Part shown: positions 14,789-35,833 of the stretch, one piece after another
Numbering within the stretch: position 1 is the first letter of the stretch
Layout of the letters: each line of letters opens with the position of its first letter
Source of the DNA: a virus
Taxonomy: Duplodnaviria; Caudoviricetes
Length of the DNA stretch: 64,000 nucleotides
IMG/VR virus record: IMGVR_UViG_3300037067_024509
Location: 1 to 64,000 of that record
Direction: 5' to 3' (one strand)
Notes under the pieces: model-generated
Database searches by the model: none
The model's input: only the letters and a program-made list of their open reading frames with translations
Told to the model about the DNA's origin: nothing
Program-made: the position numbers and the translations under genes

Positions 14789-15367
14789 GTGATATGTAAA
14801 ATATGCAAAACATGTGGTCAATCAAAGGATATAAAGTGTTTTATAGTAAGTAAGAAGATAATATCAAAATGTCGTGATTGTAGATTGATAACATCAAAAA
14901 ATTATCGTGATACACATAAAGAGTCAATCAGCAAAGCAAAAAGTAAATGTTATTATGCTAAAAAACATGAATATAATACTAAAAATAAATTTAATGCTGA
15001 AAGATCTTACAATAGTTTTATATCGTCATTATTTAGTAGTGTAAAAAAGAGAACTTTATCTAGAGAATATTTTAAATTAAATAGAAAAATAACAAGGAAA
15101 GTAATACAACTTGCTGTAACAGTTGATGATATTGTTAATATTTATGAAAATCAAAATGGCAGATGTGCAATTAGCAATATAAAAATGAAACATGAATTTG
15201 GAAAATTAGAATCTATATCGATAGATAGAATAAATTCAAATGAAGGGTATAATATTGATAATATTCAGTTGATTTGTCAGTTTATAAATCTTGGTAAACA
15301 CAATAAATCAAATAATGAGGTTATTGATTTTTTGAATAATTTAAAAGAAAAATTATGTAATGCGTAA
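14789..15367 (+). CDS. His-Me finger (HNH-like) endonuclease with N-terminal Zn ribbon
   Basis: CKTC/CRDC; QNGRCAISNIKM...SIDRINSNEGYNIDNIQLICQFINLGKH. Confidence 0.75.
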   Translation: MICKICKTCGQSKDIKCFIVSKKIISKCRDCRLITSKNYRDTHKESISKAKSKCYYAKKHEYNTKNKFNAERSYNSFISSLFSSVKKRTLSREYFKLNRKITRKVIQLAVTVDDIVNIYENQNGRCAISNIKMKHEFGKLESISIDRINSNEGYNIDNIQLICQFINLGKHNKSNNEVIDFLNNLKEKLCNA

Positions 15368-15707
15368 AAAACAACCTATTTATCAAAAAAGATGGATTGA
15401 AAAATCATATATTAATTTTTTGAATACTTTATTTATTAGTAATAAGTCAAAATTTGAAAATAGCAATATAACTTTAAAATTATTATTAGAATTATATAAT
15501 AAACAAAATGGTGAATGTGCATTAAGTAAACTTAAAATGTCTAATAAAATTGGTGATTTATATGCTATATCAATAGATAGAATTAATAACAATTTCGGCT
15601 ATAATATAAATAATATACAATTAGTATGCCAATTTATTAATTTAGGTAAGAATAGACATTCAAATGAAGATGTATTTAAGTTTTTTGAACTACTAAAGGA
15701 GTCTTAA
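15360..15707 (+). CDS. His-Me finger (HNH-like) endonuclease, short paralog of 14789..15367
   Basis: QNGECALSKLKM...SIDRINNNFGYNINNIQLVCQFINLGKN. Confidence 0.75.
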   Translation: MRKKQPIYQKRWIEKSYINFLNTLFISNKSKFENSNITLKLLLELYNKQNGECALSKLKMSNKIGDLYAISIDRINNNFGYNINNIQLVCQFINLGKNRHSNEDVFKFFELLKES

Positions 15708-15708
15708 A

Positions 15709-16269
15709 ATGCTATTAAATGGATCAAGATGTTACCTATGTGGACCAATTGAAAATCATGAAGATGATTGGAGAGTTAAAATAACTCCAAAGCTTCAAAA
15801 ATTAGGAATTAAAATATGGAATCCATTGGTAAAACCAAATTGGATGTATAATGTAACAGGGTGCGATCAAAAAAATGACAGGAATTATATTAACAACAAT
15901 ATGAATAATCTTGATAAAGATAAATTACACGAAATTTTTATAAAAAATAATGAGATTAAAAATGTTTGTTTACGTTTAGTATCTGCATGTGACTTTGTTA
16001 TTTGTAAAGTTGGTGGTCCAACAGTAGGAACTTTTCATGAATTGGCAAAAGCTAATGATCAAAATAAACCAATTTTATTTTTTACTGATAATAAAGATAA
16101 AATAGATTCAATGTGGAGATTAGTACAATTTAGCAATGAATATGAAATAAATAATACGTTTTTTGGATTATCTGATGATTTGATTGAATATTTAAATAAA
16201 ATAAATAATAATACAATAACTGTCGATAAATTAAAATGGATATTTTTATCCAATAATTGGCCAGTATAG
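15709..16269 (+). CDS. Nucleoside 2-deoxyribosyltransferase / Rcl(DNPH1)-like dNMP N-glycosidase
   Basis: CYLCGPI (cf. Rcl YFCGSI), ACDFVI, TVGTFHELAKA (catalytic Glu retained), KPILF, DSMW. Confidence 0.8.
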   Translation: MLLNGSRCYLCGPIENHEDDWRVKITPKLQKLGIKIWNPLVKPNWMYNVTGCDQKNDRNYINNNMNNLDKDKLHEIFIKNNEIKNVCLRLVSACDFVICKVGGPTVGTFHELAKANDQNKPILFFTDNKDKIDSMWRLVQFSNEYEINNTFFGLSDDLIEYLNKINNNTITVDKLKWIFLSNNWPV

Positions 16270-16314: not shown

Positions 16315-16953
16315 ATGAATACACCATTAAGTCTCGATAAGTCAATAAAAGTAGAACCATATTTTTTGGCTCCGGATAGAAATTTTCCAGATATAACAAA
16401 AATTGATATAATAGCATCAAAAAATAAGTGCCAGAATGTAATAACATCAGTAGAGTTTTGTGATCTTGTAACAGTGATGAGATCACGATTCAACTCTAAA
16501 TATGGTGTAATAGTCGAAATAGATCCAGACGGTAAAGTGTTTGGATTAAATAAAATGTTAAGAACTAATATAAATTATAGTACAATTGATGGATGTGAAA
16601 TAGGATTATCAAATAATAAAAATTATACTGAATTAATAAATGAAATGAAAGTTACGTCTGATTTTATTAAACAATTTGGTGATCATATAAAAATAAGATG
16701 GATTATAAATGCAATATATGGTTCAAAACATATAGAAAATTGCATTAAAGCAATTAAAGATTGTAATATAAAATATGATTTGATAAGAATAATAACACAA
16801 GCATCAATGGAATTTAAGAATAAAATAGAACTTGGAAACTTAATAAGAGAAGGAATTGGTATAGTGCAGGCTAAAATTAAACTTGAAGTTGATCCAAAAG
16901 ATGTTGTAGTATTAAATAATGTTTTATATTCAACACATATATCTAAATTGTGA
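16315..16953 (+). CDS. Divergent DeoC (deoxyribose-phosphate aldolase)-like TIM barrel
   Basis: By-eye alignment: VEPYFLAPD...DITK ~ IDHTLLKP...DI; VIVEIDPDG...NK ~ TVIGFPLG...K; IDGCEIGL ~ ADEIDMV; KIRWII ~ LKVII; YDLIRI ~ ADFVKT (Schiff-base Lys read as Arg); KIKL ~ VKAS. Confidence 0.45.
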   Translation: MNTPLSLDKSIKVEPYFLAPDRNFPDITKIDIIASKNKCQNVITSVEFCDLVTVMRSRFNSKYGVIVEIDPDGKVFGLNKMLRTNINYSTIDGCEIGLSNNKNYTELINEMKVTSDFIKQFGDHIKIRWIINAIYGSKHIENCIKAIKDCNIKYDLIRIITQASMEFKNKIELGNLIREGIGIVQAKIKLEVDPKDVVVLNNVLYSTHISKL

Positions 16954-17276
16954 TTTGTCCATATTGCAAAACTGATAATGATAAAATAAAAACTGTAATT
17001 AATGGGTTAAAAGTATATTGTTGTACTAATTGCAACAATATATTTAGTTCTGAATTGAATGATCATGAAATATCAACTAAAGGAATGCCTTTATATAATG
17101 TTAATAATATTATAACTCCAAATTTTAAAATAGGTGATTGTATTATGTGTGTTGATAATAAGCATCCATTATTTTTACAAGATGGATTTGTAAAAGAACT
17201 TGACCACTTACATGCTCGTATTTTATTTAAAAAGGATCTTGTATGGATGAATCAAAATGTGATAGCAAAATTATAA
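16950..17276 (+). CDS. Zn-ribbon protein with C-terminal SH3/KOW-like domain
   Basis: CPYC...CTNC; FKIGDCIMCVD...GFVKEL...ARILF. Start codon is GTG. Confidence 0.6.
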   Translation: MICPYCKTDNDKIKTVINGLKVYCCTNCNNIFSSELNDHEISTKGMPLYNVNNIITPNFKIGDCIMCVDNKHPLFLQDGFVKELDHLHARILFKKDLVWMNQNVIAKL

Positions 17277-17770
17277 ATATTAATGAAATTTTGAAGTTTG
17301 AAAATAAAATAATTAATAAATGTTATAAAAGTAAGTTAGATATTAATAAATCGGTAATGTTAATTACATATTTGTGGTCACAAGTTCGCTCTAAAGATCC
17401 AAACACTAAAGTTGGATCATCAATTTATGATTATGAAAGTGGGGCATTATTCTTAGGGTACAATGGATTTCCAGTTGGATTTCCAGATAAAGTATCATTA
17501 TGGAATAATAGAAGTAAAGATGATAAACATAATAAATATGCTTACGTGGTACATGCCGAACAAAATAATTTCATAAAAGCTATTAATAAATTTAATCCAA
17601 AAACATCTGTGATGTTTATAACAAATTATCCATGTCATAATTGTGTAAAGAATGTTATTTTACCAAGCAAAATAAAAATAATATATTATATGGATACATA
17701 CCCATATGATGAAGTATCATATAAAATGTTAAAAACTTTAAAAGTAAAAATGATAAAAATTAAATTATAA
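17243..17770 (+). CDS. dCMP deaminase
   Basis: RSKDPNTKVG, GYNGFP, VVHAEQN, YPCHNC zinc/catalytic motifs. Confidence 0.9.
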   Translation: MDESKCDSKIININEILKFENKIINKCYKSKLDINKSVMLITYLWSQVRSKDPNTKVGSSIYDYESGALFLGYNGFPVGFPDKVSLWNNRSKDDKHNKYAYVVHAEQNNFIKAINKFNPKTSVMFITNYPCHNCVKNVILPSKIKIIYYMDTYPYDEVSYKMLKTLKVKMIKIKL

Positions 17771-17815: not shown

Positions 17816-19039
17816 ATGTTTGATACCAATTTTATTTTTAAAAAAGGAAAATTAACAATATTGGGGGACGGAACTTTCGGATCGAGTGGCAAGGCCGCCA
17901 TTGCATCATTTATTTGTGAACATGCAGACTATGATTTTGCATGTAACTCGTTTTCTGCTCAGGCTGGTCATTGGTCAAGATTAGATAATGGAAAATCATA
18001 TTTTTATCAAACTTTTAATAGTTGTGCTTATCAAAATAAATATCAAAGACTTTTGATTGGTCCAGATGCAGCAATTGAATTATCGGCTCTTAAGAGAGAA
18101 ATAGAAGAAAACAATATTCCAATTAATAAAATTGGAATACATCCACTGGCCACTATTATTCAAGAAAAAGATATGGCTTATGAGCGTGGAGAAGTTGATT
18201 TTGAAGGTAATATGTTTAATAAATTAGAAGATGGTACGAAAAAACACGGCAGCACTTGTCATGGTACAGGCCCGGCAAGAGTTAGAAAAATGTTAAGGAG
18301 AAAGGATACTTTATATGCTAAAGATGTTCCAGATTTGAAAGACATGATATGTGATGTTTCAAATGAAATAATTTCAAGATTGGATGCTGGTCAAACAGGA
18401 TTACTTGAAATAGCTCAAGGATTTCCACTTAGTTTAAATTATAGATTTCATCCTGCATGTACTAATAGAAACGTCACAGTATCAGCGGCTCTAGATGGTA
18501 TGTTTATTCCACCGATTTATGCTGGTAATATAATTCTTAACTATAGAACATTTCCTATTAGAATAAGTAGTTATAAATATATTGGTGATAATGGTAAATT
18601 TTTGACATGGGCAGAAGTTGAAGAATATAAAATTGCAGGAAAAAAATATGAAATATATAAAGGAGATTCTGGTGGTTGGTATAATGACCAAACTGAGGTT
18701 GATTGGGATTATATAACTAAAATAAGTGAATCGAATACCAAAATAATGGAATTAACTAGTGTTACAAAATTGCCAAGACGTGTAGCCACTTTTTCAAAAG
18801 AATGTTTAGAAGATTCCATAAAATTTAACAGGACAGGTCACGATATTTATTTATCAATAAATTTTATGAATTATGTTGATAGTAAAATTAGCGGTATTCG
18901 TGGAAATGGATACAATAAACTTACTGATAAATCGAAAGAATGGTTAAAAGAAAATGTTGATGAAATAGCAAATAAATATAATGCTAAAGTTATGTTTATT
19001 GGAACTGGAGCAAAAACAGACGACAAAATAATATTATAA
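17816..19039 (+). CDS. purZ: PurZ-type adenylosuccinate synthetase homologue (N6-succino-2-amino-dAMP synthase candidate)
   Basis: P-loop FGSSGK (PurA GDEGK Asp replaced by Ser, as in PurZ GSTGK); AGH; GST..G; EIAQGFPLSL; CTNR; RTFPIR; SGGWYNDQ.E..W; ELTSVTKLPRRV.TFS; INFMNY (PurZ-type, not the PurA TKLD). RBS aggaga. Confidence 0.85.
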   Translation: MFDTNFIFKKGKLTILGDGTFGSSGKAAIASFICEHADYDFACNSFSAQAGHWSRLDNGKSYFYQTFNSCAYQNKYQRLLIGPDAAIELSALKREIEENNIPINKIGIHPLATIIQEKDMAYERGEVDFEGNMFNKLEDGTKKHGSTCHGTGPARVRKMLRRKDTLYAKDVPDLKDMICDVSNEIISRLDAGQTGLLEIAQGFPLSLNYRFHPACTNRNVTVSAALDGMFIPPIYAGNIILNYRTFPIRISSYKYIGDNGKFLTWAEVEEYKIAGKKYEIYKGDSGGWYNDQTEVDWDYITKISESNTKIMELTSVTKLPRRVATFSKECLEDSIKFNRTGHDIYLSINFMNYVDSKISGIRGNGYNKLTDKSKEWLKENVDEIANKYNAKVMFIGTGAKTDDKIIL

Positions 19040-19525
19040 TTTTGGCCATAATTTTTTATCGATTTTTAATTGTGATAATAATTTTGTAGACATTAATTTT
19101 ATAATACTTATATCGTTTATCGCTACTGGCGGATTATCATGGAATATTTTGTTCCATTCTATATTTTTATCGTTCCATAATGATATAATATTATTAATAT
19201 ATTTTTTATGATTATTTTTCATATGGCTTGGATCAATTATTATTCCAGCTAATGTTATTAATATTATAGTTTTTGGATTACCTTCTATATTATTCGTATT
19301 TATACCTGGTGTTTCAAAGAATTCTGATTGATATATTTCTTTTAATACTTTTGATATTGTTATATCTTCTTTTATTTCATCAACTTTACAATATAATTCT
19401 TTATTATCATCATCCCATGTTTTTGATATTATTATATAAATTTTATTATTGCTAATTATTGTATCGTTTACTATTAAATGGTCTGGTACATTGCATATAC
19501 TGATTTTTTCGTTATAAACTTGCAT
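19034..19525 (-). CDS. Hypothetical protein
   Basis: 163-aa ORF filling the gap between purZ and dnaE on the opposite strand. Confidence 0.55.
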   Translation of the reverse strand: MQVYNEKISICNVPDHLIVNDTIISNNKIYIIISKTWDDDNKELYCKVDEIKEDITISKVLKEIYQSEFFETPGINTNNIEGNPKTIILITLAGIIIDPSHMKNNHKKYINNIISLWNDKNIEWNKIFHDNPPVAINDISIIKLMSTKLLSQLKIDKKLWPKL

Positions 19526-19558: not shown

Positions 19559-22500
19559 ATGGCTATAGAATGGGATGATATTGTAAAGTATGCGAAGCGT
19601 GAGGCTGATAAGCTTGGACCTGAATATACTAAACGATTAGAATTTGAAATAAATGAGATTGAAAAGCAAGCCGCTAGTGAATATTATATCCAACTTTTGA
19701 ATGATAAAAAGAAATACGACACTAATAAAAATGGATTAGTACTGCCATTTATATTAAAAATAACAAATATAGACCCTATAAAAAATAATGTCGGTCATAT
19801 TATCACATATGAAGCAGATTATCCCGATATTGACTCAGATTTCCTCCCTCATGCTCGTGATTCAGTAAAGAAATTTATATCTGATAAGTTTGGTGCTGAT
19901 AAAGTTTGTACAGTTGGTAATTGGAATACCCTTGGCGTCAGGCAAGCTGTGCTCGATTCAGCACGAATTCTTGGTGCTGACCTTGATAAAGCTAATGCTG
20001 TTACAAAGAATTTATCTAAAGATTTTGAAGAACTTATTGATCTTGATGACATGCTTTCTGCTAGTGATGAATTTAGATCTTATTATGAATCTAATAGAGA
20101 AGTAGTTGAATTAGCTCTTCGTCTTGTTGGTAAGATTAAGAGCCAGGGTCAACATGCTGGTGGTGTTATTATTAGCAGCGTTCATTTAGCTGACACTATT
20201 CCGATGAGTATTATTAAAGGTAAGCAGGTTAGTCAATGGACTGAAGGTATGGCGTCAGTTCAGCTTAGTAAATTTGGATTAGTTAAATTCGATATTCTTG
20301 GTCTAAATACTTTAGCCTATAATACTTATACAGAAGAATTGGTTAAGAAGAATAGAGGAGTTATTATTGATTGGAGTGAAAGTGATCCTACTTGTGAAGA
20401 ACCTTACTTTGGGTATGAAACTTATCCTGATGGTACTAAAATTAAAATTTTAATGAATGATCCATTAGCTATCAAATTAGCTGACAATGTTAAAACTGAT
20501 GCTGTGTTCCAATTTGACACTCCAGTTGCTAAAGGTGTATTATCTAATGGAGTTAAAACATTTTTTGATCTTGTGACATATACGGCAATGGCCCGGCCAG
20601 GTCCAATTTCGATGATACCAGAGCTTGTTGCTCGTAGAGATGACCCTAAGCAAAGCTGGAAGAAAAAAGAAGATCCAAGAATTGTTGAAATGTTAGAGAA
20701 AACTTTTGGCATAGTTTGTGTACATGAAGATACAATGATATCTATGTCTAATGGGTTGGAAACTAGGATTAAAGATATTAATGTTGGTGACAAAGTTTTT
20801 TCTGTTTCTGAAAATGATAGAAAAATTAATTCAAATAAAGTTATTAACAAGATAAAAACAAAATTTGGTTATGGTTTAAGATTGACTTTAAATAATGGTA
20901 TTGATGCCATCTTTACTCCTGACCATAAAGTTTTAACTCATGATGGATATAAAGAAGTTCAACTACTTAATGAAAATGATGTAATTGCAATAGCTTATAA
21001 TTTTAAATGGAAAGGCAAATCTAGAAATATTGCTGAATGGCTTGGTAATAATAATGATGTTTCTTATTTTATTGGATTGTTAGTTGGTGATGGATGTTTA
21101 ACATCTTCTAATTATTGTATTGCAGTAGGATCTAAAAAAGATGCTTTGATAGTTAAAAAATTTATTGATAAAAATCTTAAATTAAATACTAATTTATTTT
21201 TTCACACTAGGTGTTGGTATATTTCATTTAATTCAAATTATAAAGATGAGTTTAAAGTTGATGAAAATGATTTTTTGAATCATAAAGACAATTATAATTG
21301 GTGGAATTTTGTATTGAACAAATATACGATTGATGAAATTCACAATAATTTAAAAAAATATGGTTTTAAAAGAAGTATATGGATGATTTTTCATAGAATG
21401 AATAAATTTAATATTAAGAAAAAATTAATAAATAGATCTAAAACTAAGTTGCATAGTTGGATTGAAGAGATTGGTTTAAACTGTAATTTTTATAATAAGA
21501 GAGTGCCTGAGTGTATAATGACTGGAAATGAATCTATAAGAGCATATTTTTTGGCTGGTTTGATTGATTCAGATGGATGTATATCTAAATCAAAAAGAAA
21601 TATTACATGTGTAAATATTAGTTCAATTAATAAATTATTATTAAATGATATTAGAAAAATATTAAATGGTTTTGGAATGCATTATAAATTATATAAACAC
21701 AGAATATATATATGGAGCACAGAGAAATTAAAAAAATTAATTAATGATAAGTTGGTCATAAAAACAATGGGAAATGGTAAATTATTGAATGGTAAATATT
21801 TATGTGAATATCCAATATCTGCAATGAATAGTATTGGATATCAAAAATTGATGAGCTTTGGTATACCAAAAGCAACAATAATTGGAAACAGAAATTCGGA
21901 TAGGAAATTTATAATTAATAAAACTATAAATAAACTCGGTATAAATTTAGGTGATCTGCAATTTTATTCTGTTAGATCTATTGATAAAGTCGAAAATTGC
22001 CAATTTTATGATATAACTGTTGAAAATGATCATTCTATGATATGTAATGGCATGGTTGCGCATAATTGTTACCAAGAGCAGTTAACGGCTGTTTGGATGA
22101 AATTCGGAGGATTAACAGCACCAGAAGCAGAAAAGGCTAGAAAGGCAGTTGCTAAGAAGAAGCGTGATGAAGTTTTGAAGTTGGGTCCAAAGATTATTTC
22201 TGGTATGATTAAAAATGGCTTTAAGGATGACCCATCTAAACCTGATGAAGAAGGTAAGTTTCCTCAATCTGATCCGTATTCTGCTCAGGGATATTGGTCA
22301 AGAATGGTTGATTTCGGAAGATATTGCTTTAATCTTAGTCATGCGATGGCCTACGGAATTGTTGCTTATCGTGCTTTGTGGTTGAAGGCTCATTATCCTC
22401 CGGAGTTTTGGGCGTCTATTTTGACTTATTGTAAGCTTGAGTCTAAACCTAAATATGTTAGTGTTGCTAAGGCTGAGGGTGTTAATTTTAGGCCATTGAG

Positions 22501-23374
22501 AGTTGGTATGTTTTCTGATAGATTTACTGTTGATAAGGACTTGAATGTTTATCCTAGTTTGTCTATGGTTAAGGGTATAGGTGATAGTGCTGCTAAGAAT
22601 TATAGTGTTGATGGTGGTTCTTGTACAAGTTTTGATGATTTTTTGGTGAAGTATGGTAAGAGTAAGGCTGTTATGGAGAGGTTGATTAAGCTTGGTGCTT
22701 TTGATGATATAGAGTCTAATAGGAATGGACTATGGAATTGGTATTTGTATAAGTATTGTTCAAAATCTGAAGATGTTGATGCTGTTAGAAAGAATATTAA
22801 TGATAAGATTATTGGTGTTGAATGGCCTGCTGATAAAATTAAAATTGAGCGTGAACGTCAGTTAGATGAATTTAAAAAATTATTTCCAAAAAAGAAGCCA
22901 CTTAAAAGGATTACTGAATGGGAGCCTAAAATTGGTTATAAATATGATTATCCTACTATAAAAGAGGTTATTAATTTATTTGATGATTATACTTTAAAAG
23001 AGAAGTTAATGTTTGAGAAGGAATATCTTGGTGTTTATTGGACTGATCCTATGCAGTTGTTTGAATATGATAGGGAATATTGTTTTGAGAATGCCAAGGT
23101 TGAAGAGGATTATTATGTTGATGGTATTGTTGAAGGATTTAATGATGCTAGAACTAAGAATGGTAAGAGGTTTAGGAATTATAATGTTAGTGATGGTGTA
23201 GAGACTAATGCTATTAAAATTTGGGAAGATTCTATTAAATATCAGGATGAAGAGGTTTATAAACCTGGATGTGGTGTAAGGGTTCCAGTTAAATGGTCTG
23301 AAAAATATCATTCATTTAGTCTACAACGTAATTGCAGTATAGTATCATTAAGGAATAAACGTGTTACATCCTAG
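19559..23374 (+). CDS. dnaE: DNA polymerase III alpha (family C, DnaE-like), lacking the N-terminal PHP domain, intein-containing
   Basis: YPDIDSDF, GQHAGGV, GLVKFDILGL, VFQF, RPGP, (intein) CYQEQL, CFNLSHA, KGIG HhH, C-terminal OB fold. Begins at the Y..RL..E..I segment that follows PHP in full-length DnaE. Confidence 0.93.
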   Translation: MAIEWDDIVKYAKREADKLGPEYTKRLEFEINEIEKQAASEYYIQLLNDKKKYDTNKNGLVLPFILKITNIDPIKNNVGHIITYEADYPDIDSDFLPHARDSVKKFISDKFGADKVCTVGNWNTLGVRQAVLDSARILGADLDKANAVTKNLSKDFEELIDLDDMLSASDEFRSYYESNREVVELALRLVGKIKSQGQHAGGVIISSVHLADTIPMSIIKGKQVSQWTEGMASVQLSKFGLVKFDILGLNTLAYNTYTEELVKKNRGVIIDWSESDPTCEEPYFGYETYPDGTKIKILMNDPLAIKLADNVKTDAVFQFDTPVAKGVLSNGVKTFFDLVTYTAMARPGPISMIPELVARRDDPKQSWKKKEDPRIVEMLEKTFGIVCVHEDTMISMSNGLETRIKDINVGDKVFSVSENDRKINSNKVINKIKTKFGYGLRLTLNNGIDAIFTPDHKVLTHDGYKEVQLLNENDVIAIAYNFKWKGKSRNIAEWLGNNNDVSYFIGLLVGDGCLTSSNYCIAVGSKKDALIVKKFIDKNLKLNTNLFFHTRCWYISFNSNYKDEFKVDENDFLNHKDNYNWWNFVLNKYTIDEIHNNLKKYGFKRSIWMIFHRMNKFNIKKKLINRSKTKLHSWIEEIGLNCNFYNKRVPECIMTGNESIRAYFLAGLIDSDGCISKSKRNITCVNISSINKLLLNDIRKILNGFGMHYKLYKHRIYIWSTEKLKKLINDKLVIKTMGNGKLLNGKYLCEYPISAMNSIGYQKLMSFGIPKATIIGNRNSDRKFIINKTINKLGINLGDLQFYSVRSIDKVENCQFYDITVENDHSMICNGMVAHNCYQEQLTAVWMKFGGLTAPEAEKARKAVAKKKRDEVLKLGPKIISGMIKNGFKDDPSKPDEEGKFPQSDPYSAQGYWSRMVDFGRYCFNLSHAMAYGIVAYRALWLKAHYPPEFWASILTYCKLESKPKYVSVAKAEGVNFRPLRVGMFSDRFTVDKDLNVYPSLSMVKGIGDSAAKNYSVDGGSCTSFDDFLVKYGKSKAVMERLIKLGAFDDIESNRNGLWNWYLYKYCSKSEDVDAVRKNINDKIIGVEWPADKIKIERERQLDEFKKLFPKKKPLKRITEWEPKIGYKYDYPTIKEVINLFDDYTLKEKLMFEKEYLGVYWTDPMQLFEYDREYCFENAKVEEDYYVDGIVEGFNDARTKNGKRFRNYNVSDGVETNAIKIWEDSIKYQDEEVYKPGCGVRVPVKWSEKYHSFSLQRNCSIVSLRNKRVTS
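20717..22066 (+). mobile_element. 450-aa intein with LAGLIDADG homing endonuclease in DnaE
   Basis: N-junction FGIV|CVHEDTMI; block B TPDHKV; LAGLIDADG motifs IGLLVGDG and LAGLIDSDG; C-junction FYDITVENDHS...VAHN|CYQEQL. Splicing restores FGIVCYQEQ. Confidence 0.95.
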
Positions 23375-32198: not shown

Positions 32199-33311
32199 AT
32201 GATAGTGGCAGTTTTTTCATGGGATAATAATAATAGGCCAATAAATTATTCTTTATATAAGGATAAAGTATTAATTAGAAGAAATGATCTTTGGAAAATT
32301 GGTTCTAAAAAGAAAATTATAGAAATAATTAAAGAACAATCTATTTTAAATAAGATTCTATCATCTGTAAATGAATTTGTGATTGTTAATTATAAAAAAT
32401 ATTTAGATTATTTTAAATGTGGATTTAATGATGTTTATGATTATCCTGGGGCTGTTGAACATGATAAACATGATGAGTTTGTTAATTCTAATTGGGATGA
32501 ATTTGGTAAGAATTGGCAAAAGTTAAGAGGTAATGCTGCTAAAGTTTATTATAAATTAGAAAAATGTGGTGTTATGCTTGAGTATAAAAATATGTTTCCG
32601 GTTTATGACATGAATGTTTTTAGTGGTAGATCTAGTACTACTGGATTTAATATTCAAGGTTGTAATAAAGAATTTAATATTAAACATGTTAATTCTTCAA
32701 ATAATATTTTTGTTCATTTCGATTGGATGGCTGCTGATATTAGAATTGCTGCTATTTTATCTGGTGATAAAGATTTAATTGATAGTTATTTAAAATCTGA
32801 TCCATATTCACATATTGTGAATATTTTAGATGGATCTGTTGATAGAGATCAATGCAAGAGCGAATTTATGCAGGCTATATATGGTCTTAATCCTGATCAT
32901 GAGATTCTGGCTGTATTTCCAACTTGTAAAAAGTGGATTTCTGATATGGTAATTGAACTTAATAATAATGGATTTGTTAGATCAATTCTTGGCAGAAAAT
33001 ACTTAACTGATGGTACAATTAAAGGTAATAGGAGGGCGTTTAATAGTATTATGCAGGGTAGTGTAGCTCATGCTATGAATAATGTGATATCAAAAATTGA
33101 TAATAAATTTGAAAATATTATTTTAACTGAGCAGCATGACTCTTTGACTGCGTGTGTTAATGAATTCAATTTTCAAGATACTATTAAATATATATCTAAT
33201 ATAATGCTGAAACCATTTGAAGGAATTTTGGATGGCAATATTACTATGCCATTAAGAATTCATGTTGGGAAACATTGGCGTGTATATAAACAAATTAAGG
33301 AAGTAAGATGA
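32199..33311 (+). CDS. Minimal family-A DNA polymerase (palm plus fingers; no recognisable thumb or exonuclease)
   Basis: FSGRSSTTGFNIQG (TGRLSS..PNLQ), motif A FDWMAADIRI, motif B RDQCKSEFMQAIYG, RSILGR, NSIMQGSVA, motif C QHDS. Confidence 0.85.
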   Translation: MIVAVFSWDNNNRPINYSLYKDKVLIRRNDLWKIGSKKKIIEIIKEQSILNKILSSVNEFVIVNYKKYLDYFKCGFNDVYDYPGAVEHDKHDEFVNSNWDEFGKNWQKLRGNAAKVYYKLEKCGVMLEYKNMFPVYDMNVFSGRSSTTGFNIQGCNKEFNIKHVNSSNNIFVHFDWMAADIRIAAILSGDKDLIDSYLKSDPYSHIVNILDGSVDRDQCKSEFMQAIYGLNPDHEILAVFPTCKKWISDMVIELNNNGFVRSILGRKYLTDGTIKGNRRAFNSIMQGSVAHAMNNVISKIDNKFENIILTEQHDSLTACVNEFNFQDTIKYISNIMLKPFEGILDGNITMPLRIHVGKHWRVYKQIKEVR

Positions 33312-34946: not shown

Positions 34947-34983
34947 ATTGACGCCCATGAGACAATATCTCATGGGCGTCAAT
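34947..34983 (+). terminator. Perfect 16-bp hairpin after the SSB gene; probable intrinsic terminator overlapping the next start codon
   Basis: attgacgcccatgaga-caata-tctcatgggcgtcaat followed by gtatttt; the right arm includes the A and T of ATG 34982. Confidence 0.75.
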
Positions 34984-35833
34984 GTATTTTAAAATAATGG
35001 ACATTTTAATAGATGGTAAAAATGTTGTTTATAGATCATTATTTGCGGCTTTAGATAAAATAACTGGTAAAGTTAAAGTTGATCCAATAATAATAGCATT
35101 ACGACAATTTGTAAAATGGAGACGTATTTATAAGCCTGATAATTGGTGTATTTTTTGGGATGTTCCAAAAAATAATTTATGGCGTAAAAAATTATATCCG
35201 CCATATAAAGAAGGTAGAGACAAATCATTTATTGATAAATCAACATTAAGTGAATTAGTTAGCAGATTTAATACCATATTTATAAATATACTTCATAATA
35301 TGAAAATGACTCAATTTATTAAAAGTGAAAATGAAGCAGATGATTTAATATATGCATATATTAAAGCTTATAATGATAAAGAATTATTGATTGTATCAAG
35401 TGATGGTGATATGGTACAAGTTTTATTAAAATGTAATAATGTTAAATTACATGATCCTAAAAATAAAGATATATTATATGTTCCAAAACCAGAATATGAT
35501 CCTGTAACAGTTAAATGTTTATCTGGTGATACAAGTGACAACATTGATGGATATAGGTTGGTTGGCGATATAACTGCTAAAAAAATAATGCGTGAAAATA
35601 GAGTTGATGCTTTTTTATCTGAAAAAGGCAGAGAAATGTTTGATTTGAATAAAAAATTAGTTGATTTTGATATGAATGATGATTTGAATAGTAATATTGA
35701 GTATATTAAATCAGTTAAGAAAAATGACAAGTTTGATATCAAAGCTATTAACAATATAATTGATAAATATAGTCTTACTGAATTAAAACAATTAATGTCT
35801 GATTTAATAATACCGTTTAAATATAATCCTTGA
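34982..35833 (+). CDS. 5'-3' exonuclease / flap endonuclease (T4 RNase H, Pol I 5'-nuclease family)
   Basis: LIDGKN, FWD, YKEGR, EADDLI, SSDGDM, GDTSDNIDG. Confidence 0.93.
   Translation: MYFKIMDILIDGKNVVYRSLFAALDKITGKVKVDPIIIALRQFVKWRRIYKPDNWCIFWDVPKNNLWRKKLYPPYKEGRDKSFIDKSTLSELVSRFNTIFINILHNMKMTQFIKSENEADDLIYAYIKAYNDKELLIVSSDGDMVQVLLKCNNVKLHDPKNKDILYVPKPEYDPVTVKCLSGDTSDNIDGYRLVGDITAKKIMRENRVDAFLSEKGREMFDLNKKLVDFDMNDDLNSNIEYIKSVKKNDKFDIKAINNIIDKYSLTELKQLMSDLIIPFKYNP

What the first reader, a model, noticed from the sequence alone, without database searches (positions are those of the whole stretch)
15709..16269. NDT/Rcl-like N-glycosidase near purZ: a possible non-DatZ route to remove adenine or exchange bases
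Seen: YLCGPI, D and GTFHEL motifs with the catalytic Glu. Established: Rcl/DNPH1 hydrolyses dNMPs to base plus deoxyribose-5-phosphate, and NDTs swap bases on deoxyribose. Inference: dAMP hydrolysis would deplete dATP precursors, and base exchange could salvage 2,6-diaminopurine. Either would be an undescribed arm of a Z pathway. Alternatively it acts on pyrimidines together with the dCMP deaminase.
Basis: partly seen in the sequence, partly recalled or inferred. Interest (0 to 1): 0.75.

Follow-up and report, generated by a model that had tools for sequence, protein, structure and literature searches.

The report
NDT-like dNMP glycosidase beside PurZ
This phage gene encodes an Rcl/NDT-type enzyme that most likely removes the base from dAMP to help build an adenine-free (2-aminoadenine) genome; that role was published for the unrelated DmtZ in 2026, but this version has a Cys in its catalytic triad and is always paired with an aldolase-like gene.

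Summary
The ORF at 15709-16269 (+, 186 aa) is real and under purifying selection. It belongs to the NDT/Rcl superfamily: Pfam PF05014 scores above its cut-off, the AlphaFold model has pLDDT 95.7, and every top PDB match is an NDT, DNPH1/Rcl or MilB. Tyr9 and the nucleophile Glu111 are invariant. The canonical triad Asp position (Rcl D69, DmtZ N77) is Cys87.

In 14 of 14 distinct loci this Cys87 clade is followed directly by a gene with a deoxyribose-5-phosphate-aldolase (DERA) fold. In 15 of 15 contigs it co-occurs with a PurZ that has Ser at the PurA Asp13 position. Sister subfamilies with Asp87 sit in 16 phage records that have no PurZ; five of those loci lie beside a canonical DeoC.

No DatZ was found, including in three complete jumbo relatives.

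Best reading (0.5): a dAMP-directed dNMP N-glycosidase or transferase that is a functional analogue of DmtZ but not its orthologue. New here are the PurZ-type jumbo-phage setting, the Cys triad, and a DERA-derived partner that appears to have lost its Schiff-base lysine.

The parts
15709..16269 (+). NDT/Rcl-superfamily protein, Cys87 clade. Key residues: Tyr9, Glu15, Pro39, Cys87, Thr105, Glu111, Trp136 and a C-terminal W177-I-F-L motif.
   Evidence: Pfam PF05014 at 32.5 bits. AF2 pLDDT 95.7. Foldseek and VIA-align place it among NDT, DNPH1 and MilB structures. Residue conservation. hhalign to DmtZ gives 97.3% probability.
16315..16953 (+). DERA-fold (DeoC-derived) TIM-barrel protein, the obligate downstream partner. 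Invariant residues are E14, D70, K80, E110, R128 and K189; position 95 is always acidic (Glu or Asp). Arg158 sits where DERA has its Schiff-base Lys.
   Evidence: AF2 pLDDT 89.8. The top ~48 Foldseek hits are all DERA. The top 6 VIA-align wide hits are all DERA, Z 15.8-17.8. hhalign to phage DeoC-likes gives 73.9% probability. It is adjacent to the NDT-like gene in 14/14 loci.
16950..17276 (+). Small Cys-rich (zinc-ribbon-like) protein of unknown role, conserved inside the module.
   Evidence: tblastn finds homologues at the same position in L002, L008, L010 and L015. There is only a weak ClpX zinc-finger hit.
17243..17770 (+). dCMP/cytidine-type deaminase. More distant relatives carry a dCTP deaminase in or near the module instead.
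   Evidence: PF00383 at 2.5e-10 and phrog_174 at 2.4e-21. The DCD in L009 scores 151.5 bits on TIGR02274, above the cut-off.
17816..19039 (+). PurZ-type succino-amino-deoxyadenylate synthase homologue with Ser at the PurA Asp13 position.
   Evidence: phrog_1211 at 3.2e-34. NF038379 at 133.8 bits, below its cut-off. GSSGK alignment. The tree places it with phiVC8 and DMU1 PurZ rather than PurZ0.

Best explanation
The gene encodes a 2'-deoxynucleoside-5'-monophosphate N-glycosidase of the NDT/Rcl superfamily. It works through a covalent Glu111-deoxyribosyl-5-phosphate intermediate. It most likely acts on dAMP, releasing adenine so that dAMP cannot be re-phosphorylated to dATP. Transfer of the dR5P moiety to 2,6-diaminopurine is a possible side or alternative reaction. 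It serves a PurZ-based 2-aminoadenine (Z) genome pathway in an uncultured AT-rich jumbo phage that has no recognisable DatZ. It is a functional analogue of DmtZ, recruited independently from a phage family whose other members carry the canonical Asp and sit next to a true DeoC. The dR5P product is taken over by the DERA-derived protein encoded immediately downstream. Shown here: the fold, the nucleophile, the gene linkage and the clade-specific Cys. Inferred: dAMP specificity, the balance of hydrolase and transferase activity, the role of the partner, and that the phage DNA contains Z.
For: 1. Superfamily and mechanism. PF05014 scores above its cut-off. The AF2 model has pLDDT 95.7. All top PDB matches are NDT, DNPH1/Rcl or MilB, with best Z 13.6, rmsd 2.5 A over 141 residues. 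Tyr9 and Glu111 are invariant in 113 of 113 sequences.

2. Monophosphate substrate. Thr105 (Thr or Ser in 96 of 113) aligns with the Rcl phosphate-binding Ser87, not with the 5'-OH-binding Asp of NDTs. The fixed partner has the fold of the enzyme whose substrate is dR5P. Five loci of the Asp87 sister subfamily have a canonical DeoC directly upstream, which aligns to E. coli DeoC at hhalign 99.6%, E 1.4e-23.

3. DmtZ-like active site. hhalign of the family against a DmtZ alignment gives 97.3% probability, E 1.9e-11. It pairs Y9 with Y6, E15 with D12, P39 with P57, E111 with E103 and W136 with W124. D12 is essential for dAMP hydrolysis in DmtZ. Both Z-linked lineages have lost the canonical Asp: Asn77 in DmtZ, Cys87 here.

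4. Linkage to PurZ. The Cys87 type has the DERA-like gene adjacent in 14/14 loci and a Ser13 PurZ on the same contig in 15/15. The Asp87 type has neither gene within 8 kb in 25 of 25 loci, and PF00709 is absent from 16 of 16 records, six of them at least 90% complete.

5. No DatZ. PF12917 finds nothing in ten records, three of them 100% complete. A Dut homologue is present in 6 of 6 larger relatives and could supply dAMP as DutZ does.

6. Both genes are under purifying selection, with dN/dS 0.16-0.26.
Against: There are no biochemical data. Glu15 is family-wide, so it is also present in PurZ-less phages and cannot by itself tie the enzyme to Z. Cys87 replaces the residue that in DNPH1 is thought to activate water, so hydrolysis may be slow. 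This point rests on my own knowledge plus the titles of the DNPH1 D80A/D80N entries. The partner appears to lack the DERA Schiff-base Lys: Arg158 takes its place, in an hhalign alignment of only 73.9% probability. Cleavage of dR5P is therefore doubtful. The window's contig is only 23% complete, so a DatZ or MazZ could lie in the missing part. Weak HD-domain ORFs of about 190-200 aa exist in three relatives. All Cys87 loci belong to related jumbo phages, so the co-occurrence counts are not phylogenetically independent. A dC-to-dU deaminase also lies in or close to the module in most loci.
Confidence: 0.5

Rival explanations
1. The enzyme is a dedicated phosphodeoxyribosyl transferase rather than a hydrolase. 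The Asp-to-Cys change suppresses water attack on the Glu111-dR5P intermediate, so the enzyme swaps bases (dAMP + Z or G gives dZMP or dGMP + adenine). The dR5P moiety is rerouted into the Z pathway. The Lys-less DERA-like partner binds or shields dR5P instead of cleaving it.
For: Cys87 is strictly clade-specific, 14/14 against Asp in 25/25. It co-varies with a partner in which the DERA K137 and K167 positions are Arg. Pro39, the 'transferase' proline, is invariant. DmtZ shows dAMP-to-Z transfer and carries Asn at this site; its N77D mutant has altered activity in both reactions.
Against: Free Z or G base is not an obvious abundant substrate early in infection. Cys could itself act as a general base. 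The Arg158 mapping has modest support (73.9%). No transferase with a Cys triad is known.
Confidence: 0.2
2. The enzyme is a pyrimidine dNMP N-glycosidase (dCMP, dUMP or hmdUMP, as for MilB and DNPH1). It works with the adjacent dCMP or dCTP deaminase to shape pyrimidine pools for a 27% G+C genome. Its proximity to PurZ reflects only a shared nucleotide-metabolism gene cluster.
For: A dC-to-dU deaminase lies in or close to the module in most loci examined (11 of 14): dCMP deaminase in the window clade and in L015; an equivalog-level dCTP deaminase in L009 and L010; and a DCD in the P0009 contig. In G005 and G006 the NDT-DERA pair stays near DCD and Dut while PurZ lies far away. DNPH1 and MilB, both pyrimidine enzymes, are structural neighbours at Z 11.5-12.3.
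Against: In L005 the pair is followed directly by PurZ with no deaminase. Genome-level co-occurrence with PurZ is 15/15 against 0/16. The acidic residue at position 15 matches DmtZ Asp12, which is essential for activity on dAMP and is proposed to recognise the adenine 6-amino group. Some Asp87 relatives sit beside a DUF5664-like ORF, a family of purine dNTP diphosphohydrolases, although that hit is weak.
Confidence: 0.12
3. The enzyme is a classical nucleoside 2'-deoxyribosyltransferase acting on nucleosides (dA + Z base gives dZ + adenine), like NDT-M2 of the metaGPA study.
For: The closest solved structures are nucleoside NDTs (C. thermalis, Z 13.6). NDT-M2 from dZ contigs prefers dA as donor.
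Against: Thr105 replaces the Asp that binds the 5'-OH in NDTs and aligns with the Rcl phosphate Ser. The partner has a DERA fold, and nucleoside cleavage would not yield dR5P. The metaGPA NDTs co-occur with DatZ and Pol A and do not co-localise with PurZ, which is the opposite of the situation here.
Confidence: 0.08
4. The protein is not a pool-shaping enzyme at all. For example, it could be a counter-defence protein that degrades or binds a nucleotide-derived immune signal, or a non-catalytic relic.
For: There is a weak SLOG-cluster4 hit at E 0.004. No activity has been shown.
Against: The nucleophile and Tyr are invariant, dN/dS is 0.16-0.23, and the gene is fixed in a cassette with DERA-like and PurZ genes.
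Confidence: 0.05

Closest known systems
DmtZ (Gordonia phage Ghobes gp53; N-terminal domain of Arthrobacter phage Wayne gp52), NAR 2026 gkag079
   Same: Both are NDT-superfamily proteins encoded near a PurZ-family gene in a phage without DatZ. Y9, E15, P39, E111 and W136 correspond to Y6, D12, P57, E103 and W124. In both, the canonical triad Asp is replaced by a non-acidic residue. hhalign gives 97.3% probability.
   Different: It is not in the DmtZ clade: the tree places DmtZ outside the whole family at 100/99 support, and tblastn and HMM similarity is almost nil. It has Cys87 rather than Asn, an insertion of about 40 residues and a C-terminal extension. It is linked to a PurZ-type rather than a PurZ0-type synthase. 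It is neither fused nor adjacent to a Dut in the window. It is paired with a DERA-fold gene that is absent from Ghobes, Wayne, phiVC8, DMU1 and MaF61. The hosts are uncultured jumbo phages, not actinophages.
Rcl / DNPH1 (2'-deoxynucleoside 5'-phosphate N-hydrolase 1)
   Same: The fold matches (Z about 12). It is the best sequence match in the PDB (E 0.05). The Tyr and Glu nucleophile are shared, and there is a hydroxyl residue (Thr105) at the phosphate-binding Ser87 position.
   Different: Cys87 replaces Asp69. There is an acidic Glu15 where Rcl has Arg. It has extra helices at residues 46-93 and a C-terminal Trp motif.
Nucleoside 2'-deoxyribosyltransferases (e.g. Chroococcidiopsis thermalis NDT; Lactobacillus NDT/PDT); NDT-M2 of bioRxiv 2025.10.22.683976
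   Same: These are the best structural matches (Z 13.6, 22% identity). The transferase-type Pro is conserved.
   Different: It lacks the 5'-OH-binding Asp. Its genomic context is different: directly beside PurZ, with no DatZ or Pol A association.
DeoC / DERA (for the partner gene at 16315-16953)
   Same: It has a TIM barrel closest to DERAs (TM 0.65-0.74; Z 15.8-17.8). Equivalents of D16, D102 and K201 are kept (E14, E95, K189). It is collinear with phage DeoC-likes.
   Different: It has no Pfam DeoC hit. Arg stands at the K137 and K167 (Schiff-base) positions. The window clade has also lost the K-x-S-G-G phosphate loop motif.

Membership tests
NDT/Rcl superfamily (Pfam PF05014) | Profile match above the curated cut-off | tested here: met
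   32.5 bits against a cut-off of 28.8, E 1.1e-7.
NDT/Rcl superfamily (Pfam PF05014) | Rossmann-like NDT fold | tested here: met
   AF2 pLDDT 95.7. All top Foldseek and VIA-align hits are NDT, DNPH1 or MilB, Z 11-13.6.
NDT/Rcl superfamily (Pfam PF05014) | Catalytic Glu nucleophile and its Tyr partner | tested here: met
   E111 and Y9 are invariant in 113/113 sequences. They align to Rcl E93 and to DmtZ E103 and Y6.
NDT/Rcl superfamily (Pfam PF05014) | Third triad residue Asp (Rcl D69, NDT D72) | tested here: not met
   Cys87 aligns with Rcl D69 and DmtZ N77. It is Cys in 14/14 PurZ-linked loci and Asp in 25/25 unlinked relatives.
DmtZ | Membership of the monophyletic DmtZ clade | tested here: not met
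   The tree places DmtZ outside the 35-sequence family at 100/99 support. The family HMM gives only 13.6 bits on Ghobes DmtZ and nothing on Wayne. The tree contains no other superfamily outgroups.
DmtZ | Functional residues Tyr6, Asp12, Pro57, Glu103, Trp124 | tested here: met
   hhalign pairs them with Y9, E15, P39, E111 and W136. Conservation is shown.
DmtZ | Asn77 at the triad position | tested here: not met
   The residue here is Cys87.
DmtZ | Encoded with PurZ0 and next to, or fused with, DutZ | tested here: not met
   The linked synthase groups with PurZ, not PurZ0. There is no Dut in the 82.7-kb record. Dut is present elsewhere in 6/6 larger relatives and is adjacent only in G006.
DmtZ | dAMP-specific hydrolysis and dR5P transfer to Z | not testable with these tools
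   This needs an enzyme assay.
Rcl/DNPH1 dNMP hydrolases | Small hydroxyl residue at the 5'-phosphate site (Ser87) instead of the NDT Asp | tested here: met
   T105 aligns with Rcl S87. The position is Thr or Ser in 96/113 sequences.
Classical nucleoside NDT | Asp six residues before the nucleophile that binds the 5'-OH | tested here: not met
   The position is Thr105. The role of this Asp comes from my own knowledge of Lactobacillus NDT.
DERA/DeoC (partner gene) | DERA-type TIM-barrel fold | tested here: met
   Foldseek top hits are all DERA at E 2e-6 and TM 0.73. VIA-align wide gives Z 15.8-17.8 for six DERAs and at most 14.4 for other barrels.
DERA/DeoC (partner gene) | Pfam PF01791 match | tested here: not met
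   None of the 14 members gives a hit at E up to 10.
DERA/DeoC (partner gene) | Schiff-base Lys on strand beta-6 (E. coli K167) | tested here: not met
   hhalign through phage DeoC-likes pairs R158 with that Lys, at a modest 73.9% probability. The position is Arg in 12/14 members, Ile or Ser in 2, and never Lys. E. coli residue numbers were checked.
PurZ (neighbour gene) | Ser replacing PurA Asp13 | tested here: met
   GSSGK in the window, and Ser in all 16 homologues aligned from NDT-carrying contigs, against GDEGK in E. coli PurA. The criterion is from PMC12884076.
PurZ (neighbour gene) | NCBIfam NF038379 above its cut-off | tested here: not met
   133.8 bits against a cut-off of 300. It is a divergent member.

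The most novel reading that the evidence does not exclude
Both halves of an ancestral degradative cassette have had their active sites remodelled together. The ancestral form is an Asp-type dNMP glycosidase plus a true DeoC. In this clade Asp87 has become Cys in the glycosidase, and K137 and K167 have become Arg in the aldolase-like partner. This could mark a new two-protein system specific to PurZ jumbo phages. Such a system would no longer destroy dR5P but capture or transfer it, for example moving the phosphodeoxyribosyl group of dAMP onto guanine or 2,6-diaminopurine to feed PurZ or dZTP synthesis while removing adenine.
Probability: 0.2. Interest if true: 0.8.

Novelty: new variant of a known kind. 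Interest (0 to 1): 0.6.

Why it matters
Z-genome phages must both make dZTP and keep dATP out of their DNA. Two solutions are known: DatZ plus MazZ in PurZ phages, and DutZ plus DmtZ in PurZ0 actinophages. This locus suggests a third. In PurZ-type jumbo phages with a DnaE-type replicase and no recognisable DatZ, an independently recruited NDT-family enzyme with a Tyr-Cys-Glu triad is hard-wired to a DERA-derived protein. If confirmed, it would be another case of convergent recruitment of dNMP glycosidases for adenine exclusion. It would also give a natural Cys variant for studying how this superfamily partitions between hydrolysis and transfer, which matters for DNPH1 inhibitors and for enzymatic nucleotide synthesis. 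The Cys87 signature and the gene pair could serve as a marker for Z genomes in metagenomes.

Tried and rejected
1. tblastn of the protein against 50,697 cultured-phage records found no match.

2. hhalign of the 9-sequence alignment against the single Ghobes DmtZ sequence gave 5.9% probability. This was superseded by the profile-profile comparison.

3. A sequence-level link between the partner gene and DERA was not found by Pfam or PHROGs, a PDB profile search, or hhalign local and global against the single E. coli DeoC sequence. Pairwise global alignments were noise, with z at most 4. The HMM of canonical phage DeoC does not hit the partner family. Only the fold searches and hhalign against the phage DeoC profile connect them.

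4. The search for related loci with the 113-sequence and one 6-sequence alignment failed because no block was conserved enough.

5. Three encoding-contig look-ups of distant representatives returned contigs of about 1 kb or nothing.

6. The homologue search with Ghobes DmtZ returned only Ghobes DmtZ itself.

7. Pfam scans of ten longer 'fused' family members showed no informative partner domain. One has an HNH domain, probably a gene-call read-through.

8. Family scans in G000 and four related fragments found no DatZ (PF12917), HD (PF01966), MazG (PF03819), DUF550 (PF04447) or DUF5664 (PF18909). For DUF550 and DUF5664 the control genomes also gave no signal, so those two blanks show nothing.

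10. The DCD-like neighbour in relatives was considered as a DutZ analogue and rejected. It scores as an equivalog dCTP deaminase, and in the window clade a dCMP deaminase takes its place.

11. My first assignment of N80 as the triad residue was corrected. N80 aligns with Rcl D62; C87 is the D69 equivalent.
Full report
**Observation.** The ORF at 15709-16269 (+) encodes 186 aa. An AAGGAG ribosome-binding site lies 8 nt upstream of the start. dN/dS against homologues of 73-75% identity is 0.16-0.23. Pfam PF05014 (Nuc_deoxyrib_tr) scores 32.5 bits against a cut-off of 28.8. An AlphaFold2 model built on 113 homologues has mean pLDDT 95.7 and pTM 0.90. Every leading PDB match belongs to the NDT superfamily. 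The best is Chroococcidiopsis NDT at Z 13.6, rmsd 2.5 A over 141 residues. DNPH1/Rcl follows at Z about 12, and MilB at 11.5-11.8.

The window is part of an 82.7-kb IMG/VR virus record of about 27% G+C, estimated to be 23% complete. Relatives are contigs of 107-395 kb, which makes them jumbo phages.

**Active site.** A profile search of 1.84 billion cluster representatives found 910 family members at E up to 1e-3. In an alignment of 113 of them, Y9, W21, R22, P39, G107 and E111 are invariant. Position 15 is Glu or Asp in 105 of 113, and T105 is Thr or Ser in 96 of 113. The best sequence match among solved structures is Rcl at E 0.05. That alignment pairs E111 with Rcl E93, T105 with Rcl S87 and C87 with Rcl D69.

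The triad position itself is Cys.

**What is already published.** PMC12884076 (NAR, February 2026) characterises DmtZ of phages Ghobes and Wayne. [quoted passage not shown] Its triad is Tyr6, Asn77 and Glu103, and Asp12, Pro57 and Trp124 are also important. The paper reports that dmtZ is enriched in PurZ0 genomes and sits next to, or fused with, dutZ, whereas PurZ phages use DatZ plus MazZ or DUF550. bioRxiv 10.1101/2025.10.22.683976 reports PF05014 as associated with dZ contigs. Its NDT-M2 is a nucleoside enzyme that prefers dA, and those NDTs co-occur with DatZ and Pol A rather than with PurZ. The 'undescribed arm' is therefore now described in principle.

**Relation to DmtZ.** I fetched Ghobes (KX557278, where gp53 is DmtZ), Wayne, Keanu, Archimedes and HunterDalle. 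Profile-profile comparison of the window's family with these five DmtZ sequences gives 97.3% probability and E 1.9e-11 over 108 columns. It pairs Y9 with Y6, E15 with D12, P39 with P57, C87 with N77, E111 with E103 and W136 with W124.

The similarity is at superfamily level only. The family HMM scores 13.6 bits on Ghobes DmtZ and finds nothing in Wayne, and tblastn against all cultured phages finds nothing. In a maximum-likelihood tree DmtZ lies outside the entire family at 100/99 support. That tree has no other superfamily outgroups, so independent recruitment is likely but not proven.

**Gene context.**
- In every distinct locus that carries a close or moderately distant homologue, the next gene downstream belongs to one conserved family, represented here by 16315-16953 (212 aa). 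The loci are the window, L002, L005, L008, L009, L010, L015, L016, L018, L020, L021, L022, L023 and L025, which makes 14 of 14.
- A PurA-family gene lies within about 3.5 kb in 12 of these 14 loci. In the other two, which are complete genomes of 395 and 320 kb, it lies elsewhere in the genome.
- The P0009 contig, for which only gene calls are available, shows the same order. The total is therefore 15 of 15 contigs.
- All these synthases carry Ser at the E. coli PurA Asp13 position (GSSGK or GSTGK against GDEGK), which is the published PurZ criterion.
- In a tree they group with phiVC8 and DMU1 PurZ rather than with PurZ0, at 90/89 support.
- NCBIfam's PurZ model scores 133.8 bits, below its cut-off of 300, so these are divergent PurZ-type enzymes.

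**The control that makes the link specific.** Two more distant subfamilies of the same protein family gave 25 further viral loci. None has the DERA-like gene or a PurZ within 8 kb. PF00709 is absent from all 16 searchable records, six of which are at least 90% complete. Residue 87 separates the two groups perfectly. It is Cys in 14 of 14 PurZ-linked loci and Asp in 25 of 25 unlinked ones, and residue 134 is Ser against Pro in 24 of 25. In the tree the Asp group (98/92) and the Cys group (88/61) each fall on one side of a branch. These groups are clades, so the counts are not independent events.

**The partner gene.** The 212-aa protein has no Pfam, PHROG, NCBIfam or PDB sequence match. Its AlphaFold model (pLDDT 89.8) is a TIM barrel. 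The top ~48 Foldseek hits are all 2-deoxyribose-5-phosphate aldolases, with TM 0.65-0.74. An independent all-against-all VIA-align search ranks six DERAs first at Z 15.8-17.8, ahead of generic barrels at Z 14.4 or below.

A bridge to the DERA sequence family came from the Asp87 subfamily. In five of its loci (L050-L053 and L061) the gene directly upstream of the NDT-like gene is a canonical DeoC. It scores 33.5 bits on PF01791, and hhalign to E. coli DeoC gives 99.6% probability, E 1.4e-23, with D16, D102, K137, K167 and K201 all conserved. The window's partner family aligns collinearly to these phage DeoCs at 73.9% probability, E 2.8e-5, over 175 columns. That alignment pairs E14 with D16, E95 with D102, R128 with K137, R158 with K167 and K189 with K201.

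The partner therefore derives from DERA, but Arg appears to replace both K137 and the Schiff-base lysine K167. That position is Arg in 12 of 14 members and never Lys. Classical aldol cleavage is consequently doubtful, while binding of dR5P is plausible. dN/dS for this gene is 0.18-0.26.

The NAR authors assayed DmtZ in vitro by coupling it to E. coli DeoC. Neither paper mentions a phage-encoded DERA-like gene. The partner family is absent from MaF61, phiVC8, Ghobes, Wayne and DMU1.

**Other pathway components.** No YfbR-like DatZ was found in the window's record or in nine related records, three of which are 100% complete. MazG is present only in G008. Weak HD-domain ORFs of 190-204 aa occur in three relatives. 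A Dut homologue is present in 6 of 6 larger relatives, adjacent to the pair in G006, and 33% identical to Ghobes DutZ in G001. It is not present in the 82.7 kb available for this phage.

Most loci examined also carry a dC-to-dU deaminase in or near the module: a dCMP deaminase here, and a dCTP deaminase (TIGR02274, 151.5 bits, above the cut-off) in L009 and L010. This non-homologous replacement suggests that deamination for dTTP supply is a genuine module function. It keeps the pyrimidine rival alive, although L005 has the pair followed directly by PurZ with no deaminase.

**Mechanism, separating what is shown from what is inferred.**
- Shown: an NDT-fold enzyme with an intact Tyr and Glu nucleophile, a hydroxyl residue at the phosphate site, a clade-specific Cys at the third triad position, obligate pairing with a DERA-derived protein, and exclusive co-occurrence with Ser13 PurZ.
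- Inferred: the enzyme forms a Glu111-dR5P intermediate from a purine dNMP, most likely dAMP. The reasons are the acidic residue at the DmtZ Asp12 position, the PurZ linkage and the lack of DatZ. It would release adenine so that dAMP, made from dATP by a Dut-like or host enzyme, cannot return to dATP.
- Open: whether water or a base (Z or G) resolves the intermediate. Loss of the Asp, together with loss of the partner's lysines, could mean a shift from degradation to transfer or capture of dR5P.

I give 0.5 to the dAMP glycosidase reading and 0.2 to the transferase-dominant variant. The pyrimidine substrate reading gets 0.12, the nucleoside NDT reading 0.08 and other roles 0.05.

**Verdict.** What remains new is a third, independently evolved configuration of the adenine-exclusion arm, so I rate it a new variant of a known kind.

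**Limits.**
- There is no biochemistry.
- The contig is incomplete.
- The co-occurrence counts are phylogenetically clustered.

Noticed in passing
window 14789-15367 and 15360-15707: Two tandem HNH/endonuclease-VII-like ORFs (phrog_1035, phrog_3322) sit directly upstream of the NDT-like gene. In the syntenic relatives L002-L004 this spot holds no such genes, so they look like homing-endonuclease insertions.
   Followed up: partly
window 19559-23374: The DnaE-type Pol III alpha homologue is 1271 aa, against 822 aa in L002. tblastn splits the match into residues 1-399 and 837-1271, so about 440 aa are inserted, probably an intein or homing-endonuclease element. Relatives instead carry a LAGLIDADG ORF between the deaminase and purZ.
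   Followed up: partly
L050-L053 and L061 (DeoC directly upstream of the NDT-like gene); L049, L055, L057, L058 (ORF 0-1.4 kb upstream): Asp87-type relatives occur in PurZ-less phage records; those at least 90% complete are about 47-52 kb. They sit directly after a canonical DeoC, or near an ORF with a weak DUF5664 match (dATP/dGTP diphosphohydrolase, 20.2 bits, below the cut-off). This suggests a general phage cassette running dNTP to dNMP, then base plus dR5P, then triose. Its purpose in phages without PurZ is unexplained.
   Followed up: partly
L009:12083-12631, L010:14142-14771, and the P0009 contig: A dCTP deaminase (equivalog-level in L009) lies in or close to the module in these relatives, where the window clade has a dCMP-type deaminase. 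This is a non-homologous replacement of the dC-to-dU step.
   Followed up: partly
L010:13015-13470: A GNAT acetyltransferase lies directly after purZ in one relative (PF00583, 30.8 bits). Its role is unknown.
   Followed up: no
window 19034-19525 (-): A 163-aa ORF on the opposite strand between purZ and dnaE is conserved at 40-59% identity in L002, L005, L008 and L015. It has no family match.
   Followed up: no
window 32199-33311 and 34982-35833: A short family-A polymerase homologue of 370 aa matches only the C-terminal part of PF00476. A separate 5'-3' exonuclease gene lies nearby. The phage therefore carries both DnaE-type and Pol A-type polymerase genes near a PurZ.
   Followed up: no
L007 (Flavobacterium phage MaF61, PQ858689): This cultured 168-kb phage has the closest PurZ homologue in the cultured-phage collection searched (36% identity, Ser at the Asp13 position) and an adenylosuccinate lyase. 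It has neither the NDT-like nor the DERA-like gene.
   Followed up: partly
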